Source: Escherichia coli (GTDB lineage: Bacteria; Pseudomonadota; Gammaproteobacteria; Enterobacterales; Enterobacteriaceae). Taken from it: a stretch of 64,000 bases of DNA. This document shows, in pieces, positions 8,427 to 56,464 of this stretch (position 1 is its first letter; each line of letters starts with the position of its first letter). The translations under genes and the position numbers were made by a program. The notes under the pieces are model-generated. The model was not told the origin of the DNA. It saw only the letters and a list, made by a program, of their open reading frames with translations, and ran no database searches. The DNA lies in the NCBI RefSeq assembly GCF_013122565.1, contig NZ_CP053258.1; one strand, given 5' to 3'.

Positions 8427-8442
8427 CATTTTCGCTTCTGAT

Positions 8443-10167
<1,725 letters not shown>

Positions 10168-14541: not shown

Positions 14542-14985
14542 ATGGTTATTAGTATTCGCCGCTCACGGTATGAGGAAGGGGAGGAACTCGTTGCGATTTG
14601 GTGTCGATCTGTCGATGCCACCCACGATTTTTTATCAGCAGAGTATCGGGCCGAGCTGGAAGAGCTGGTTCGTTCCTTTCTGCCGGAAGCACCGTTGTGG
14701 GTCGCGGTTAATGAACGGGATCAGCTGGTTGGGTTTATGTTGTTAAGTGGGCAGCATATGGATGCGCTGTTTATCGATCCTGATGTGCGCGGCTGCGGCG
14801 TGGGTCGGATGCTGGTGGAGCATGCGCTCTCGATGGCACCGGAACTGACAACCAACGTTAATGAGCAAAATGAGCAGGCGGTTGGGTTCTATAAGAAGGT
14901 GGGTTTTAAGGTTACTGGACGCTCTGAGGTGGACGATTTGGGGAAACCGTATCCGTTGCTGAATCTGGCGTATGTGGGGGAATAA
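14542..14985 (+). CDS. yjaB: GNAT-family N-acetyltransferase YjaB
   Basis: ORF 14536-14985; internal start MVISIRRSRYEEGEELVAIW gives 147 aa; acetyltransferase-like motif region (..LFIDPDVRGCGVGRMLVEHAL..) present. Confidence 0.85.
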   Translation: MVISIRRSRYEEGEELVAIWCRSVDATHDFLSAEYRAELEELVRSFLPEAPLWVAVNERDQLVGFMLLSGQHMDALFIDPDVRGCGVGRMLVEHALSMAPELTTNVNEQNEQAVGFYKKVGFKVTGRSEVDDLGKPYPLLNLAYVGE

Positions 14986-15012
14986 GCTGCCCCCTATCGT
15001 GCTATCGTGCCT

Positions 15013-15051
15013 GCGTAAGCTGGATAAGACGCGCCAGCGTCGCATCCGGCA
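15013..15051 (-). repeat. REP-like element between yjaB and the rrnE terminator
   Basis: Minus-strand tgccggatgcgacgctggcgcgtcttatccagcttacgc fits the REP pattern. Confidence 0.5.
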
Positions 15052-15065
15052 TTTTTTTCTGCGCC

Positions 15066-15098
15066 AATGCAAAAAGGCCATCCGTCAGGATGGCCTTT
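15066..15098 (-). terminator. rrnE operon intrinsic terminator
   Basis: aggccatcc-gtca-ggatggcct hairpin with a T-run on the minus strand, immediately after the 5S gene. Confidence 0.7.
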
Positions 15099-15109
15099 CG
15101 CTTAATTTG

Positions 15110-23620: not shown

Positions 23621-24942
23621 CGCGACAGTTTTGCCAATAGCGTTTTGCGAGTGATCCCTAACTGACGGGCGGCTTCGGTTTTGTTGCCGCCCGTTTTCTC
23701 CAGCGCCGCCAGAATCACCTCTTTTTCCACTTCCACCAACGGCTGAATATCCTGACTTTGCCCCAGCGGGATCGGCGTACTGGCAATCGCCAGCGGCAGC
23801 TCGCGTTCGGAAATATATTCCCCAGTCAGCAGCACCACCGCCCGTTCCACCGCATTTTCCAGTTCACGAATATTTCCCGGCCAGTCGTAATGAATCAACA
23901 GATCCATCGCCTGGGGCGTAAAGCCTTTTACCGCCTTGCGATTACGTTCAGCAAAGCGCTGAAGAAAATGGCCAGCCAGCAGAGGAATATCTTCCCGCCG
24001 TTGCCGCAGCGACGGTACTTCAATCGCCACCACGTTCAGGCGATAGTAGAGATCCTGGCGAAAACGCCCGGCCTTTACCTCTGCGGCAAGATCGCGATGG
24101 GTCGCCGCAATCAGCCGGACATCAACCGAAATAGTCTGGTTGCTACCGACACGCTGAACTTCGCGTTCCTGAATCGCACGTAGCAGACGCACCTGCATCA
24201 TCGGCGAGATATCGCCAATTTCATCGAGAAACAGCGTGCCGCCGTCCGCCTCAACAAAGCGCCCTTCCCGGCGTTTATCGGCTCCAGTAAACGCCCCTTT
24301 TTCGTGACCGAACAATTCAGATTCCAGCAAGGATTCGTTGAGTGCCGCACAGTTGAGCGTTACCAGCGGTTTTTCGCTACGTGCGCTACTGGCGTGAATC
24401 GCCCTGGCGACCAGCTCTTTACCGGTGCCGGAATCGCCGTGGATCAGCACCGTGGCTTCCGATGGCGCGACGAGGGCGATTTCACTGAGCAGGTGTTGCA
24501 TCGCCGGGCTTTTACCGACCATACCGAACTGGCTGGCAGTCACCGCAGGTGTTTCAGCATCAATACTGTGCGTATGCGCGAGCGCCTTTTCCAGCGTCGC
24601 CTGTAGGTTATCGAAATCCAGCGGCTTGATGAGATAATCCAGCGCCCCAGTTTTCAGTGCCTCTACCGCCGTCTCGACGCTGGAGTACGCAGTCATAATC
24701 AGCACCGGAATTGCCGGGTTTAACGCTTTGATCTCTTTCAGCGTGGCGATGCCGTCCATCTCCGCCATTCGCACATCGCAAAGCACAAGATCAAAAACCT
24801 GTTCCCGCACCTGCTCCAGCGCCTGTCGCCCGCTGTTCGCCAGCGCGACGTTATAGCCCCAGCCGCGCAGTAAAGCCTGCAAAATAGTGCAGTGGCTAAT
24901 GTCATCATCCACCACCAGAATATCGATATTATCGTGCGTCAT
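23617..24942 (-). CDS. zraR: Sigma-54-dependent response regulator ZraR (HydG)
   Basis: 441-aa ORF with receiver domain, AAA+ sigma-54 activator motifs (GESGTGKE, GAFTGA) and C-terminal HTH. Confidence 0.9.
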
Positions 24943-26315
24943 CCTTGTGGGTCCTTACGCGTAATATTGACCGGAAGCCAGAGGGTGAACGTTGCGCCTT
25001 TTCCCTCCTGGCTTGCGACCTGAATTGTACCACCGTGTTGTTCAACAATATTATGCACGACCGCCAGCCCCAATCCGGTGCCTTCGGCTTTGGTGGTGAA
25101 GTACGGAGTGAAGATGGCTTCAAGCTGATCTGCCGCAATTCCCTTACCGCTGTCGGTAACGCTGATTTTCACGCCCGCGCCGCTTTCGCTGGCCGTCACG
25201 CTAATCACGCCATGCTGACCAATCGCCTGAATAGCATTGAGATAGAGATTCAACAGGACCTGAGTCAGCCTGTCCGGATCGGCCTGAATTTCCGGTAATG
25301 TGTCGTTGTCGGTAAAGCGTAACTGGATCTCCCGGCTGTTTGCATCCTGGCTTACCAGCTGTAATGAGTGGTTAATCAGCGTGTTGAGATCCACCGCCTG
25401 CAAAGCCAGATGCGTTGGCTTAACCAGTTCCAGCAACTCGCTTACCACGCGGTTTAAACGGTCGGCCTCTTTCGCCATCACCTGCGCCAGTTGATGCGCT
25501 TCTCCCCCTGCAGGCGCGCGCTCGGCAAAGTATTTCGCCAGTCCTTTAATCGAGGAAAGTGGGTTACGGATTTCGTGGGCAACGCCTGCCGCAAGATGCC
25601 CCAGCGCCACCAGCTTCTCTTTGCGCTTCATTTCATCTTGTAGAAGCTGGCGCGAGCGCAGATAGCGGCGATACCAGAAGAATGACAATACGCTTGCCAG
25701 CAAGACCGTCGCCAGGGCGAAGAGGATAATCAGGGTGTTTCTCTGCTCACGATCTTCGGCACTCACAATATTACTGGCGTCGAAAGCGATGAAAATTGCT
25801 TGTGGTGTCGCGGCATACTGCTGCATATGGCGCATCCGGTGCATTCCAGCAGCAAACATCGGTTGAAACTGGCGATAAATTTCCAGAACAGGCTCGCCGT
25901 CTGCGCTATCGATCCGCCGCCATGCTTCTTCATCTCCCGGATGTAACTGCTGCATTTCCTGCGGGGAATAAAGCTGTTTTCCCACCATGCCGGAGTTGCT
26001 ATGCATCACGATTGTTCCTTGTTCATCCGTGACCGCAAACCAACGTACTCCAGGCTGCCCGGCCATTTCTTCCAGTAAGGCCTGCTGCTGCGCATGATGC
26101 ATGCGCATCCCCATGCCGACGCGCGAGCCGGATTCAAGAGCGCGAATAAGTACACTGCCTTTTTCCAGCAGCGTTTGTCTGGCGGCGGCAGTCTCGCGCC
26201 CATAATCGCGAATCACCGTCACCGCAAACAACCCCACCAGCCCAACAATGACCACGGGGAGGATCGCGCTTAACCATTTAGCTAAGGAGTCTTTAGAACG
26301 TTGCATAAAACGCAT
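24939..26315 (-). CDS. zraS: Sensor histidine kinase ZraS (HydH)
   Basis: 458-aa ORF with two hydrophobic segments and a histidine-kinase core (HEIRNPL H-box); overlaps zraR by 4 nt. Confidence 0.9.
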   Translation of the reverse strand: MRFMQRSKDSLAKWLSAILPVVIVGLVGLFAVTVIRDYGRETAAARQTLLEKGSVLIRALESGSRVGMGMRMHHAQQQALLEEMAGQPGVRWFAVTDEQGTIVMHSNSGMVGKQLYSPQEMQQLHPGDEEAWRRIDSADGEPVLEIYRQFQPMFAAGMHRMRHMQQYAATPQAIFIAFDASNIVSAEDREQRNTLIILFALATVLLASVLSFFWYRRYLRSRQLLQDEMKRKEKLVALGHLAAGVAHEIRNPLSSIKGLAKYFAERAPAGGEAHQLAQVMAKEADRLNRVVSELLELVKPTHLALQAVDLNTLINHSLQLVSQDANSREIQLRFTDNDTLPEIQADPDRLTQVLLNLYLNAIQAIGQHGVISVTASESGAGVKISVTDSGKGIAADQLEAIFTPYFTTKAEGTGLGLAVVHNIVEQHGGTIQVASQEGKGATFTLWLPVNITRKDPQG

Positions 26316-29451: not shown

Positions 29452-29607
29452 AATCGCTCCTTAGAGCCTGGTTCAACAGGCGTAATTGTTGAAGGCAGTT
29501 TGAGGCCGGACAGCGCGGAAAAACCGGAGCGTACACGTAGTACGTGAGGATTTTGAGCACTGCCCGGCCTCAAAATGGCAAATAAAATAGCCTGATGGAC
29601 CAGGCTC

Positions 29608-30672
29608 TTAGCGGTGATACTGTTCAGACAGTCGATGCACTGCCTCCACAAACACGCCAGCATGTTCTGGCGGCACATCCTGATGAATGCCGTGACCAAG
29701 GTTAAAGACATGACCTTCGCCGTGACCGAAACCTACAAGTATAGTCGCGACTTCTTCTTCAATGCGGGCAGGCGGCGCGTACAGCATCGACGGATCCATA
29801 TTACCCTGCAACGCGACTTTATTGCCCACACGGCGGCGCGCATCGGCGATGTCCGTTGTCCAGTCGAGGCCCAGCGCATCGCAACCGGTTTCTGCCATGG
29901 CTTCCAGCCACTGTCCGCCGCCTTTGGTAAACAGCGTGACCGGTACGCGGCGACCGTCGTTTTCACGCAGTAAACCATCAACAATTTTATGCATGTAATA
30001 AAGCGAGAACTGTTGATAATCGCGCCCGGTAAGCACGCCGCCCCAGGTGTCGAAAATCATCACAGCCTGAGCACCGGCTTTAATCTGCGCATTCAGATAC
30101 AAAGTGACGCTTTTCGCCAGTTTATCGAGCAGAGCGTGCAGCGCCTGCGGATCGGCATACATCATTTTTTTGATCACGGTGAACGCTTTGCTGCTGCCGC
30201 CTTCCACCATGTAGGTCGCCAGCGTCCACGGGCTGCCGGAAAAACCAATCAGCGGCACTTCGCCTTTCAGTTCGCGACGAATGGTACGCACCGCGTTCAT
30301 CACGTACCCCAGTTCATCTTCCGGGTCCGGAATTGGCAGTTTATCGACGTCAGCTTTGCAGGTGACTGGCGAGGTAAAACGCGGACCTTCTCCGGCTTCA
30401 AAATAGAGCCCTAACCCCATCGCGTCCGGCACGGTGAGGATATCGGAAAAGAGGATCGCCGCATCCAGCGGGTAGCGACGCAGCGGTTGCAAAGTCACTT
30501 CGCACGCCAGCTCGGCGTTTTTGCACAGCGACATAAAATCGCCCGCCTGGGCGCGCGTGGCTTTATATTCCGGTAGATAGCGACCCGCCTGGCGCATCAT
30601 CCATACTGGAGTGACATCAACGGGCTGGCGCAGCAGCGCCCGCAGATAACGATCGTTTTTAAGTTCGGTCAT
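29608..30672 (-). CDS. hemE: Uroporphyrinogen decarboxylase
   Basis: 354-aa [53 protein letters not shown]... Confidence 0.95.
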
Positions 30673-48393: not shown

Positions 48394-48684
48394 TAGCTTT
48401 GCTCCTGGATGTTTGCCAGAGAAAATCTCTGGAACTCACTTCACTCCTCCAAACGGAGAGAGCGTCTTAATTACGGTGAGCAGAAACAAGCCAGAATATA
48501 AAAGAATAATCTTAGCGTTCTGTCACCGTCTACGCAGGGGATTAAGTTTCTTGCGAAACTCCTGCGGTCTTCGACGGAGGCCTGGATAGGCCAGGCTCCA
48601 ACGAACAAATCTTTTTAGCTGCTAACTTTCGTTAGCATACGTGGGGGTAAGATTGTAGACAAAATCACCGCCCACGTAAAGGCA

Positions 48685-52711: not shown

Positions 52712-52796
<85 letters not shown>

Positions 52797-52804
52797 GGAC
52801 TTGA

Positions 52805-52880
<76 letters not shown>

Positions 52881-52894
52881 ATCAAGTAGCGCGC

Positions 52895-52923
52895 ATTCTA
52901 TGGAGACATGCGAGTTCATGCAA
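52895..52923 (-). promoter_or_regulatory. thrU-tyrU-glyT-thrT-tufB operon promoter
   Basis: Minus strand TTGCAT-17 bp-TAGAAT followed by a GC-rich discriminator (gcgcgc), about 8 nt upstream of thrU. Confidence 0.65.
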
Positions 52924-53240
52924 CTAAAAAATTGCATAATTTGTTTTGTTGGTCACATTTTATGCGACACGATGAAGAAACAGCCGAATGGAGGGCAGAT
53001 TAGCACACTTTTTCAACATGATGTGCTCAACAATGCGCTCCTGCTAAACCATAATTCTTTTTATCAGATGGAATATCTGTCACATTGCTTTTCAACGATA
53101 GCTTCCTGGGAGAGATTTTTTCTTATTATTCCTCCCCATCTGGTGTTACCCTCCTGCCCATTAACCCATTCAACAGAACTGTGACGCGCCATGGCAAATA
53201 TCGCTTTGCCGATAGAGCTATGACCGCCAGAAACATGCTT

Positions 53241-54191
53241 ATGAGTATAAAAGAGCAAACGTTAATGACGCCTTACCTACAGTTTGACCGCAACCAGTGG
53301 GCAGCTCTGCGTGATTCCGTACCTATGACGTTATCGGAAGATGAGATCGCCCGTCTCAAAGGTATTAATGAAGATCTCTCGTTAGAAGAAGTTGCCGAGA
53401 TCTATTTACCTTTGTCACGTTTGCTGAACTTCTATATAAGCTCAAATCTGCGCCGTCAGGCAGTTCTGGAGCAGTTTCTTGGTACCAATGGGCAACGCAT
53501 TCCTTACATTATCAGTATTGCTGGTAGTGTCGCGGTGGGGAAAAGTACAACCGCCCGTGTATTGCAGGCGCTATTAAGCCGTTGGCCGGAACATCGTCGT
53601 GTTGAACTGATCACTACAGATGGCTTCCTTCACCCTAATCAGGTTCTGAAAGAACGAGGTCTGATGAAGAAGAAAGGCTTCCCGGAATCGTATGATATGC
53701 ATCGCCTGGTCAAGTTTGTTTCCGATCTCAAGTCCGGCGTGCCAAACGTTACAGCCCCTGTTTACTCGCATCTTATTTATGATGTGATCCCGGATGGAGA
53801 TAAAACTGTTGTTCAGCCTGATATTTTAATTCTTGAAGGATTAAATGTCTTACAGAGCGGGATGGATTATCCACACGATCCACATCATGTATTTGTTTCT
53901 GATTTTGTCGATTTTTCGATATATGTTGATGCACCGGAAGACTTACTTCAGACGTGGTATATCAACCGTTTTCTGAAATTCCGCGAAGGGGCTTTTACAG
54001 ACCCGGATTCCTATTTTCATAACTACGCGAAATTAACTAAAGAAGAAGCTATTAAGACTGCCATGACATTGTGGAAAGAGATCAACTGGCTGAACTTAAA
54101 GCAAAATATTCTACCTACTCGCGAGCGCGCCAGTTTAATCCTGACGAAAAGTGCTAATCATGCGGTAGAAGAGGTCAGACTACGCAAATAA
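53241..54191 (+). CDS. coaA: Pantothenate kinase (type I)
   Basis: ORF 53085-54191; internal start [27 protein letters not shown] gives 316 aa; P-loop GSVAVGKST present. Confidence 0.95.
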
Positions 54192-54194
54192 TTT

Positions 54195-54225
54195 TCAGGG
54201 GAGCTAATGCTCCCCTTTCTTATTT
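54195..54225. terminator. Hairpin terminator between convergent coaA and birA
   Basis: aggggagc-taat-gctcccct followed by ttcttatttt. Confidence 0.6.
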
Positions 54226-55185
54226 TTATGCACTACGCAGGGATATTTCACCGCCCATCCAGGGTTTTATTATTCCATCCTGCTCAAGCAATAAAGCGCC
54301 CTGTTTGTCTATTCCGCGTGAAATGCCAAATATTTCTTTATCACCAATGATAAGTTTCACTGGGCGATTAATAAAATTATCCAGCTTTTCCCAGCGCGAA
54401 AGATAAGGTGCCAATCCTTCTTGTTCGAAGAGTTCCAGCGCCGCGCGTAATTCACGTATTAGCATGGCCGCCAACGTATTACGATCGAGATTGATCCCCG
54501 CTTCCTGCAGCGTGATCCACCCCTGATTAACGACACTCTCTTCAACACGACGCATTGCCATGTTGATACCGGCTCCAATGACTATTTGCGCCGCATCGCC
54601 GGTTTTACCAGTCAGCTCCACAAGAATGCCTGCCAGCTTGCGATCCTGCAGATAGAGGTCATTAGGCCATTTAACACGAACTTTATCTGCACCCAGCTTG
54701 CGTAATACTTCCGCCATCACGATACCGATAACCAGACTTAAACCAATCGCCGCCGCCGGGCCTTGTTCCAGACGCCAGAACATCGACAAATATAAGTTTG
54801 CGCCAAAAGGCGAAAACCATTTCCGACCCCGGCGACCACGGCCAGCCTGCTGGTATTCTGCAACGCAGGCATCGCCCGATTTAAGCTCTCCGATACGATC
54901 AAGAAAGTACTGATTCGTGGAGTCAATCACTGGCAGCACGGCTACACTACCGCCATCCAGCTGACCCAATATCTGTTTAGCATTAAGTAACTGGATAGGC
55001 TCAGGCAGGCTGTATCCTTTACCCGGAACGGTAAAGACATCAACGCCCCAGTCACGCAGTGTCTGAATGTGTTTATTAATAGCCGCCCGACTCATTCCTA
55101 ACGTTTCACCCAACTGCTCACCTGAGTGAAATTCGCCATTCGCTAACAGCGCGATTAATTTCAGCGGAACGGTATTATCCTTCAT
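54226..55185 (-). CDS. birA: Biotin-protein ligase / bio operon repressor BirA
   Basis: 319-aa [54 protein letters not shown]...; ends ..SLRSA at a TAA, two residues short of the K-12 ending I recall (..SLRSAEK). Confidence 0.93.
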
Positions 55186-56210
55186 GAAATCGTCTCCACT
55201 GCGCTAACTTCACCTGATGCACCAATAAAGCGAACTTCAGGCTCAAGCCAGACATTAAATTTTTCACCCACTTTTTGTCTTACATGGTGCGCCAGTTGCA
55301 CCACATCTTCGCTTTTTGCATTGTCTTCATTAATGAGAACTAACGCCTGTTGACGGTGCACCGCTGCACCACCCATTTGCATCCCTTTTAGCTGGCACTG
55401 ATCGATAAGCCAACCTGCTGCCAGTTTTACTGAACCATCCACCTGGGGGTAATTTGGTGCTGTTGGAAATTGTGCCAGTAATGCTTTAGCCGTTTCGGCA
55501 GACACAACAGGGTTTTTGAAGAAACTACCGGCATTGCCATTCACTTTTGGGTCAGGAAGTTTGGTGGTGCGCATATGACACACCGCATCAAATACTTGCT
55601 GTGGCGTTATTGTTGCAGGATCCAGACGAGTTAAGTCACCATACGTTAGTACAGGTTGCCACTCTTTTGGCAGACGCAGACCTACGGCTACAATGGCGAA
55701 GCGATCCTGGTATTCATGTTTAAAAATACTGTCGCGATAGCCAAAACGGCACTCTTTGGCAGTTAAGCGCACTTGCTTGCCTGTCACCAGTTCAACACAA
55801 TCAACATAAGCGCAAACTCGCTGTAATTCTACGCCATAAGCACCAATATTCTGGATAGGTGATGAGCCGACACAACCAGGAATTAATGCCAGATTTTCCA
55901 GACCTGGCATACCTTCCTGCAAAGTGTATTTTACCAGGCGATGCCAGTTTTCCCCTGCCCCCACATGTAAATACCACGCATCAGGTTCATCATGAATTTC
56001 GATACCTTTGATCCGGTTGATGATCACCGTGCCGCGATAGTCTTCCAGAAAAAGTACATTACTTCCTTCACCCAGAATAAGAGCGGGTTGTCCTTTTGCG
56101 GTTGCATGCTGCCAGGCATTGAGTAGTTGTTGTTCGTCTTCGGCACATACAATGTGCTGAGCATTATGATCAATGCCAAATGTGTTCCAGGGTTTTAAGG
56201 AGTGGTTCAT
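55182..56210 (-). CDS. murB: UDP-N-acetylenolpyruvoylglucosamine reductase
   Basis: 342-aa [57 protein letters not shown]...; overlaps the birA start. Confidence 0.95.
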
Positions 56211-56299
56211 AGCTGCTTTCCTGATGCAAAAACGAGGCTAGTTTACCGTATCTGCGGGGGGATGGCTTGTAGATATGATGACAGGAAAAGTTTGTAGAA

Positions 56300-56332
56300 A
56301 CGCAAAAAGGCCCAGTCTTCCGACTGAGCCTT
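56300..56332 (-). terminator. rrnB operon intrinsic terminator (single T1/T2-like hairpin)
   Basis: Minus strand ggctcagtcggaagactgggcc hairpin followed by a T-run, immediately after the 5S gene. Confidence 0.7.
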
Positions 56333-56344
56333 CTGCTTAATTTG

Positions 56345-56464
56345 ATGCCTGGCAGTTCCCTACTCTCGCATGGGGAGACCCCACACTACCATCGGCGCTA
56401 CGGCGTTTCACTTCTGAGTTCGGCATGGGGTCAGGTGGGACCACCGCGCTACGGCCGCCAGGCA
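56345..56464 (-). rRNA. rrfB: 5S ribosomal RNA (rrnB operon)
   Basis: 120-nt reverse-complement match to E. coli 5S rRNA. Confidence 0.95.

What the first reader, a model, noticed from the sequence alone, without database searches (positions are those of the whole stretch)
54226..54240. BirA ends two residues early compared with the remembered K-12 protein
The birA frame stops at a TAA (54226-54228, minus strand) after ..SLRSA. A G-to-T change turning GAA (Glu) into TAA would explain the difference from K-12 ..SLRSAEK. The change is probably neutral, but BirA's C-terminal domain contributes to the biotin and dimerisation functions, so it is worth confirming the call.
Basis: partly seen in the sequence, partly recalled or inferred. 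Interest (0 to 1): 0.15.

Follow-up and report, generated by a model that had tools for sequence, protein, structure and literature searches.

The report
BirA loses two tail residues
A single G-to-T change makes this strain's biotin ligase/repressor BirA stop two amino acids early, but those residues lie in a naturally variable tail, so the change is real, rare and almost certainly harmless.

Summary
The birA ORF (window 54226-55185, minus strand) encodes 319 aa ending ...SLRSA, and the codons read GCA TAA AAA TAA. E. coli K-12 MG1655 reads GCA GAA AAA TAA (...SLRSAEK, 321 aa). The difference is one G-to-T transversion at window 54228.

The base is probably not an assembly error. An independent Logan assembly of run SRR11451224 gives a 3,596-base contig identical to the window across the site.

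The allele is private. None of 5,420 complete E. coli genomes has the 47- or 57-base sequence carrying T. The exact protein (WP_171460008.1) is a UniRef100 singleton.

It is almost certainly neutral:
- In 41 aligned sequences (36 of 80 Enterobacteriaceae species representatives collected, plus 5 E. coli-type alleles), invariance of BirA ends at Arg317.
- Of the 80 representatives, 75 have 320 aa, 3 have 321 and 2 have 319. Shimwellia pseudoproteus ends in exactly ...SLRSA.
- At least 319 complete E. coli genomes carry a 320-aa allele (...SLRSAE).
- C-terminally extended BirA is crystallised and used as active enzyme.
- The terminator hairpin shared with coaA is untouched.

This is an ordinary, already databased allele of a well-known gene.

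The parts
54226..55185 (-). birA coding sequence including the new stop; 319 aa bifunctional biotin-[acetyl-CoA-carboxylase] ligase / bio operon repressor
   Evidence: ORF. NCBIfam NF008849 equivalog at 652.8 bits against a cut-off of 474, plus TIGR00121 and TIGR00122. Pfam HTH_11, BPL_LplA_LipB and BPL_C are recorded on the identical Logan gene. The exact protein is WP_171460008.1 / QJU26017.1.
54226..54228 (-). Premature stop TAA at codon 320. The variant base is window 54228 (T on the minus strand, G in other E. coli).
   Evidence: Sequence. Base-by-base comparison with IAI1, the 'DH5alpha' record and MG1655. No exact match to the T allele in 5,420 complete E. coli genomes.
54220..54225 (-). 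Former Lys321 codon AAA (54225-54223) and the ancestral TAA stop (54222-54220). Both now lie in the 3' untranslated region, and the old stop is an in-frame back-up two codons downstream.
   Evidence: Alignment to MG1655.
54197..54216 (.). GC-rich hairpin between the convergent genes birA and coaA (terminator-like on both strands). The SNP does not change it.
   Evidence: Terminator scan: stem 54197-54216 with tail TTCTTATTTT on the + strand, so the SNP lies 2 nt beyond that tail. RNA folds of the window and MG1655 keep the same main stem on both strands.
53241..54191 (+). coaA (type I pantothenate kinase), convergent neighbour; 316 aa as in K-12
55182..56210 (-). murB, upstream gene overlapping the birA start by 4 nt (ATGA); 342 aa as in K-12

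Best explanation
This is a real nonsense SNP that no other surveyed genome shares. GAA became TAA at codon 320 (window 54228), so BirA ends at Ala319 instead of Lys321. The protein keeps the whole winged-helix DNA-binding domain, the catalytic domain and the folded C-terminal domain through the conserved ...GGEISLR317. It loses only two residues of an unconserved tail that varies in length. It should therefore still biotinylate AccB and repress the bio operon normally, which makes the change effectively neutral. Translation stops six nucleotides earlier than usual, the old TAA remains in frame just downstream, and the terminator hairpin shared with coaA is unaffected.

Shown: the SNP, its rarity, independent assembly support, natural variation in tail length, and the intact terminator.

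Inferred: unchanged enzyme and repressor activity.
For: The sequence and ORF are. MG1655 has GAA AAA TAA and 321 aa.

Logan contig SRR11451224_301 (3,596 bases) is 100% identical to window 52767-56362 and translates to the same 319-aa protein. It ends inside tRNA-Tyr and at the rRNA operon, which are repeat boundaries.

The exact protein is in NCBI as WP_171460008.1 with n=1.

Among 80 Enterobacteriaceae species representatives, BirA has 320 aa in 75, 321 in 3 and 319 in 2. Shimwellia pseudoproteus ends ...SLRSA and Siccibacter colletis ends ...SLRGA. In a 41-sequence alignment (36 of those representatives plus 5 E. coli-type alleles) the last invariant column is R317.

E. coli itself has a 320-aa allele, GAA TAA TAA (VCSW5, WP_000654634.1). 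Its 47-mer is exact in 319 genomes, and another 414 are within 1-2 mismatches.

PDB 4WF2 is a 327-aa chain, that is 321 aa plus 6 at the C-terminus. C-terminally His-tagged E. coli BirA is used as an active enzyme (PMC4016012).

The predicted structure puts the last strand at 314-318 and leaves 319-321 as low-confidence coil.

birA is essential in E. coli (PMC5640590), and the genome comes from a sequenced, presumably cultured isolate, so the ligase should work.

Of 39 CDSs compared in full with K-12, the other 38 show no point nonsense change. There is therefore no sign of poor assembly or gene decay.
Against: No functional measurement exists for this allele. The truncation ends two residues after Arg317. 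From my own recollection of Chapman-Smith et al. 2001 (Protein Sci 10:2608), which I could not retrieve here, an R317E substitution lowers ATP affinity about 25-fold. Moving the C-terminal carboxylate closer to Arg317 could therefore have a small effect. Mutations in the C-terminal domain can also give super-repressor phenotypes (PMC4016012). The structure model is weak overall (mean pLDDT 61.8). The deposited genome and the Logan contig may derive from the same reads, so they are independent assemblies but not independent data.
Confidence: 0.86

Rival explanations
1. The T is a sequencing or assembly error, and the strain really has GAA and a 321-aa BirA.
For: The allele is a singleton. It is absent from 5,420 complete E. 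coli genomes and from metagenome contigs, and the protein is seen on only one NCBI contig. The site sits next to an A5 run.
Against: An independent Logan assembly of run SRR11451224 gives the same base within a clean 3.6-kb contig that breaks only at repeats. The change is a substitution, not the homopolymer-length error typical of long-read consensus. Of 39 CDSs compared in full with K-12, the other 38 show no frameshift or point nonsense change.
Confidence: 0.04
2. The truncation matters functionally. Shortening the tail next to Arg317 would alter ATP or BCCP handling, or the repressor set-point (for example a mild super-repressor or a derepressed bio operon), and may have been selected in this lineage.
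For: The C-terminal domain belongs to the catalytic core and is thought to contact BCCP (PMC5640590). C-terminal-domain mutations can give super-repressor phenotypes (PMC4016012). From memory, R317E lowers ATP affinity, but I could not retrieve that paper.
Against: Residues 318-321 are not conserved. Wild-type BirA of Shimwellia ends at the same ...SLRSA. A 320-aa allele occurs in at least 5.9% of complete E. coli genomes. C-terminal tags are tolerated. The allele has not spread beyond one genome.
Confidence: 0.07
3. The change acts at the RNA level rather than the protein level. It would affect termination of the convergent coaA transcript or stability of the birA mRNA, because the SNP lies near the shared terminator.
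For: The SNP is 12 nt from the terminator stem and just past the coaA U-tract. It removes one base pair from a small secondary hairpin, costing about 1 kcal/mol.
Against: The main 8-bp GC-rich stem and the first 10 nt of the U-tract are unchanged. No Rfam family overlaps the site. The same hairpin already carries stem and loop polymorphisms among E. coli strains.
Confidence: 0.02

Closest known systems
E. coli K-12 BirA (WP_000654630.1; PDB 1BIA/1HXD/2EWN), the type example of a group II biotin protein ligase/repressor
   Same: Same gene in the same murB-birA-coaA context and the same three-domain architecture. Residues 1-319 differ only by L94F and I108V.
   Different: The window protein lacks Glu320-Lys321 because of a GAA-to-TAA change.
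E. coli 320-aa BirA allele (WP_000654634.1, e.g. strain VCSW5)
   Same: A natural E. coli BirA with a shortened tail, produced by a nonsense change in the last codons (AAA to TAA at codon 321). Its 47-mer is exact in 319 complete genomes.
   Different: It loses one residue (ends ...SLRSAE) and is a common lineage allele. The window allele loses two residues and is a singleton.
Shimwellia pseudoproteus and Siccibacter colletis BirA (319 aa)
   Same: Wild-type enterobacterial BirA proteins that end at the same alignment position...SLRSA and ...SLRGA.
   Different: They are 81-82% identical orthologues from other genera, and their short tail is the species norm rather than a recent mutation.

Membership tests
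BirA, group II (bifunctional) biotin protein ligase / bio repressor | Full-length match to the curated BirA equivalog model above its cut-off | tested here: met
   NF008849 scores 652.8 bits against a cut-off of 474, with protein residues 1-319 on profile positions 1-319 of 320.
BirA, group II (bifunctional) biotin protein ligase / bio repressor | N-terminal winged helix-turn-helix DNA-binding domain | tested here: met
   TIGR00122 birA_repr_reg covers residues 6-76 at 106 bits against a cut-off of 70. PF08279 is recorded on the identical gene.
BirA, group II (bifunctional) biotin protein ligase / bio repressor | Central catalytic domain with the GRGRRGR motif (115-121) and Lys183 | tested here: met
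   TIGR00121 covers residues 81-317 at 289 bits. G115-R121 and K183 are present and fall in invariant columns of the 41-sequence alignment.
BirA, group II (bifunctional) biotin protein ligase / bio repressor | C-terminal BPL_C domain intact through the conserved GGEISLR317 | tested here: met
   PF02237 is on record. The protein retains residues up to A319, and the last invariant column is R317. The modelled last strand is 314-318 (a low-confidence model).
BirA, group II (bifunctional) biotin protein ligase / bio repressor | Conserved chromosomal context murB-birA, convergent with coaA | tested here: met
BirA, group II (bifunctional) biotin protein ligase / bio repressor | Biotinyl-AMP synthesis, BCCP biotinylation and bioO operator binding by this 319-aa form | not testable with these tools
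   This needs complementation, enzyme kinetics and repression assays. It is inferred to be intact because the gene is essential (PMC5640590) and from the comparative data.

The most novel reading that the evidence does not exclude
Removing Glu320-Lys321 places the C-terminal carboxylate two residues from Arg317. This could measurably shift BirA's ATP affinity or its switch between ligase and repressor, giving this rare E. coli lineage a different biotin-regulation set-point.
Probability: 0.05. Interest if true: 0.2.

Novelty: already known. Interest (0 to 1): 0.04.

Why it matters
It matters very little. The work confirms that the base call is sound and that the annotation of a 319-aa BirA (WP_171460008.1) is correct and not a pseudogene. 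It also documents that the BirA tail after Arg317 varies freely in length (319-321 aa) both within E. coli and across Enterobacteriaceae. That is mildly useful to people who engineer BirA, BioID or TurboID C-terminal fusions or truncations. Nothing about it would surprise a specialist.

Tried and rejected
1. E. albertii origin. The E. albertii type strain gave the best protein match among species representatives (99%). At the DNA level it is only 95.1% identical over the locus, against 98.2% for K-12, so I rejected it.

2. Source strain. No complete RefSeq E. coli genome exceeds 98.4% over 3.1 kb or 98.8% over 24 kb. A paper search for SRR11451224 found nothing. The strain remains unidentified.

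3. T allele elsewhere. None of 5,420 E. coli genomes matches the 57-mer or 47-mer exactly, and there are no metagenome contigs with it. A T allele combined with another nearby private SNP cannot be strictly excluded.

4. Primary paper on R317E (doi 10.1110/ps.22401). It is not held. Full-text searches for R317E and Arg317 found no occurrences. That point therefore rests on my memory.

5. AlphaFold2 model of K-12 BirA from a 41-sequence alignment. Overall confidence is low (mean pLDDT 61.8). I used it only as weak support that residues 319-321 follow the last strand, and I did not run a fold search.

6. Rfam scan of 53900-54600 found nothing.

7. Widespread gene decay (Shigella-like) as context. 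Of 39 CDSs compared in full, 36 have the K-12 length, and only birA carries a point nonsense change. I rejected this idea.

Full report
**Observation**

The minus strand of the window carries an ORF at 54226..55185 that encodes 319 aa ending ...[12 protein letters not shown]. The DNA reads ...CTG CGT AGT GCA TAA AAA TAA GAAAGGGGAGC. The stop is at 54228-54226, followed by an AAA codon (54225-54223) and a second in-frame TAA (54222-54220). The protein is clearly BirA. It scores 652.8 bits against the NCBIfam equivalog NF008849 (cut-off 474) and also matches the ligase and repressor domain models. It sits between murB and the convergent coaA, as in K-12.

**Comparison with K-12**

The MG1655 record NZ_CP009685.1 has GCA GAA AAA TAA at this place, and its annotated BirA (WP_000654630.1) has 321 aa ending ...SLRSAEK. 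The difference is one G-to-T transversion at window 54228, which turns Glu320 into a stop. Elsewhere the window protein differs from MG1655 BirA only by L94F and I108V.

**Is the base real?**

Raw reads cannot be inspected with these tools, so I used two proxies.

- The exact 319-aa protein is in the public protein collection as QJU26017.1 / WP_171460008.1. It is a UniRef100 singleton, on one 4.82-Mb NCBI contig and in one Logan assembly.
- The Logan contig SRR11451224_301 was assembled independently from an SRA run. It is 3,596 bases long and 100% identical to window 52767-56362, including the TAA.
- That contig ends inside tRNA-Tyr and at the edge of the rRNA operon. These are repeat boundaries, which is what an accurate short-read graph assembly would produce (inference).

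Of 39 CDSs in the window compared in full with K-12, 36 have the K-12 length. aceK and zraS differ because they are divergent alleles. birA is the only gene changed by a point nonsense mutation. There is no general sign of a poor consensus. I put the chance of an error at about 4%.

**How common is the allele?**

- A 57-base query centred on the SNP found all 5,420 complete E. coli genomes that carry the locus, and none matched exactly.
- A 47-base query that leaves out the polymorphic terminator hairpin also gave no exact match.
- The closest haplotypes, such as IAI1 and W, differ from the window's last 271 bases only at this position.
- A scan of metagenome contigs for the T allele found nothing.

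The allele is therefore private to one strain, or nearly so. The strain is from an uncommon E. coli lineage. The best identity to any complete RefSeq E. coli genome is 98.4% over 3.1 kb and 98.8% over 24 kb. The E. albertii type strain is only 95.1% identical in DNA, despite 99% protein identity.

**Does it matter for the protein?**

The comparative evidence points to no effect.

- Across 80 Enterobacteriaceae species-representative genomes, BirA has 320 aa in 75, 321 aa in 3 and 319 aa in 2. Shimwellia pseudoproteus ends in exactly ...SLRSA and Siccibacter colletis in ...SLRGA.
- In a 41-sequence alignment (36 of those representatives plus 5 E. coli-type alleles) the invariant columns run through W309, G311-G312-E313-I314-S315-L316-R317 and then stop. 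Positions 318-320 take S/G/P, A/V/I/N and E/G/S/N/K/D/M.
- Within E. coli, a 320-aa allele (GAA TAA TAA...SLRSAE; WP_000654634.1 in strain VCSW5) matches exactly in 319 complete genomes. Another 414 genomes are within one or two mismatches of its 47-mer. A separate 320-aa E. coli allele on a different background is also on record (P0014).
- PDB 4WF2 is a 327-aa chain with six extra C-terminal residues. C-terminally His-tagged E. coli BirA is used routinely as active enzyme (PMC4016012).
- An AlphaFold2 model of K-12 BirA has low overall confidence (mean pLDDT 61.8), but block-mean pLDDT is 77-86 over residues 241-310, which cover the C-terminal domain. It places the last strand at 314-318 and leaves 319-321 as coil with falling confidence. 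I treat this as weak support only.
- birA is essential in E. coli (PMC5640590), so a sequenced, presumably cultured isolate should have working ligase (inference).

**Caveats on the protein**

The C-terminal domain is part of the catalytic core and is believed to help bind BCCP (PMC5640590). Mutations in it can produce super-repressor phenotypes (PMC4016012). From memory, R317E lowers ATP affinity about 25-fold (Chapman-Smith et al. 2001), but that paper is not held here. The new C-terminus lies two residues after R317, so a subtle effect cannot be excluded. I give this about 7%.

**RNA-level effects**

The SNP lies outside the GC-rich hairpin between birA and coaA (stem 54197-54216). It is two bases beyond the 10-nt T-rich tail of the coaA-direction terminator. 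Folding the window and MG1655 versions keeps the main stem on both strands. Only a small side hairpin loses about 1 kcal/mol. No Rfam family overlaps the site. The ancestral TAA remains in frame six bases downstream as a back-up stop.

**Verdict**

This is a genuine, private, almost certainly neutral nonsense SNP. It trims two residues from an unconserved tail of a well-characterised protein whose length already varies, and the allele already has a RefSeq accession. It is not novel, and interest is very low.

Noticed in passing
window ~8433-8448 and ~14980-15103: Relative to MG1655, the window lacks the 2.5-kb arpA gene between iclR and aceK (annotated 'espL4' in that record). It also lacks yjaA, which lies between yjaB and the rrn operon. 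The rest of the region from metH to btuB is collinear. The lineage has no close relative among 5,426 complete RefSeq E. coli genomes (best 98.4-98.8%).
   Followed up: partly
window 24939-26315 (zraS) and 8448-10167 (aceK): zraS is a strongly divergent allele. It is 86.7% identical to K-12, has several indels and encodes 458 aa against 465, while its neighbours zraR and zraP are 98-99.5% identical. aceK is 94.2% identical, has a diverged 3' end and encodes 574 aa against 578.
   Followed up: no
window ~29460-29611: A ~150-nt near-perfect palindrome (predicted -84 kcal/mol) sits between nfi and hemE and is absent from this site in MG1655. It belongs to a dispersed repeat family with a median of 5 places per E. 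coli genome. About 305 complete genomes, including O121 STEC strains, match it at 95% identity or more; the six listed hits are 100% identical and lie at this same site next to hemE.
   Followed up: partly
window 48615-48637 (rplA-rplJ spacer): MG1655 has about 121 extra bases here compared with the window. I did not determine what the extra segment is.
   Followed up: no
L001 (NZ_CP026085.1, labelled E. coli DH5alpha): This 4.83-Mb record carries the IAI1-type birA (WP_000654593.1) and terminator haplotype, not the MG1655 type (WP_000654630.1). It may not be a true K-12 derivative.
   Followed up: partly
window 54197-54216 versus L084 (MG1655): The birA/coaA terminator hairpin is polymorphic among E. 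coli strains. MG1655 has a C-to-T change in the stem, which creates a G-U pair, and a changed loop base. The fold is kept in every version.
   Followed up: yes
protein cluster of P0001: The 90%-identity cluster that holds BirA (7,440 members) also contains MurB sequences, and its representative (P0002) is a partial MurB. A possible cause, not checked, is fused murB-birA gene calls across the 4-nt overlap. Cluster-level names for this family are unreliable.
   Followed up: no
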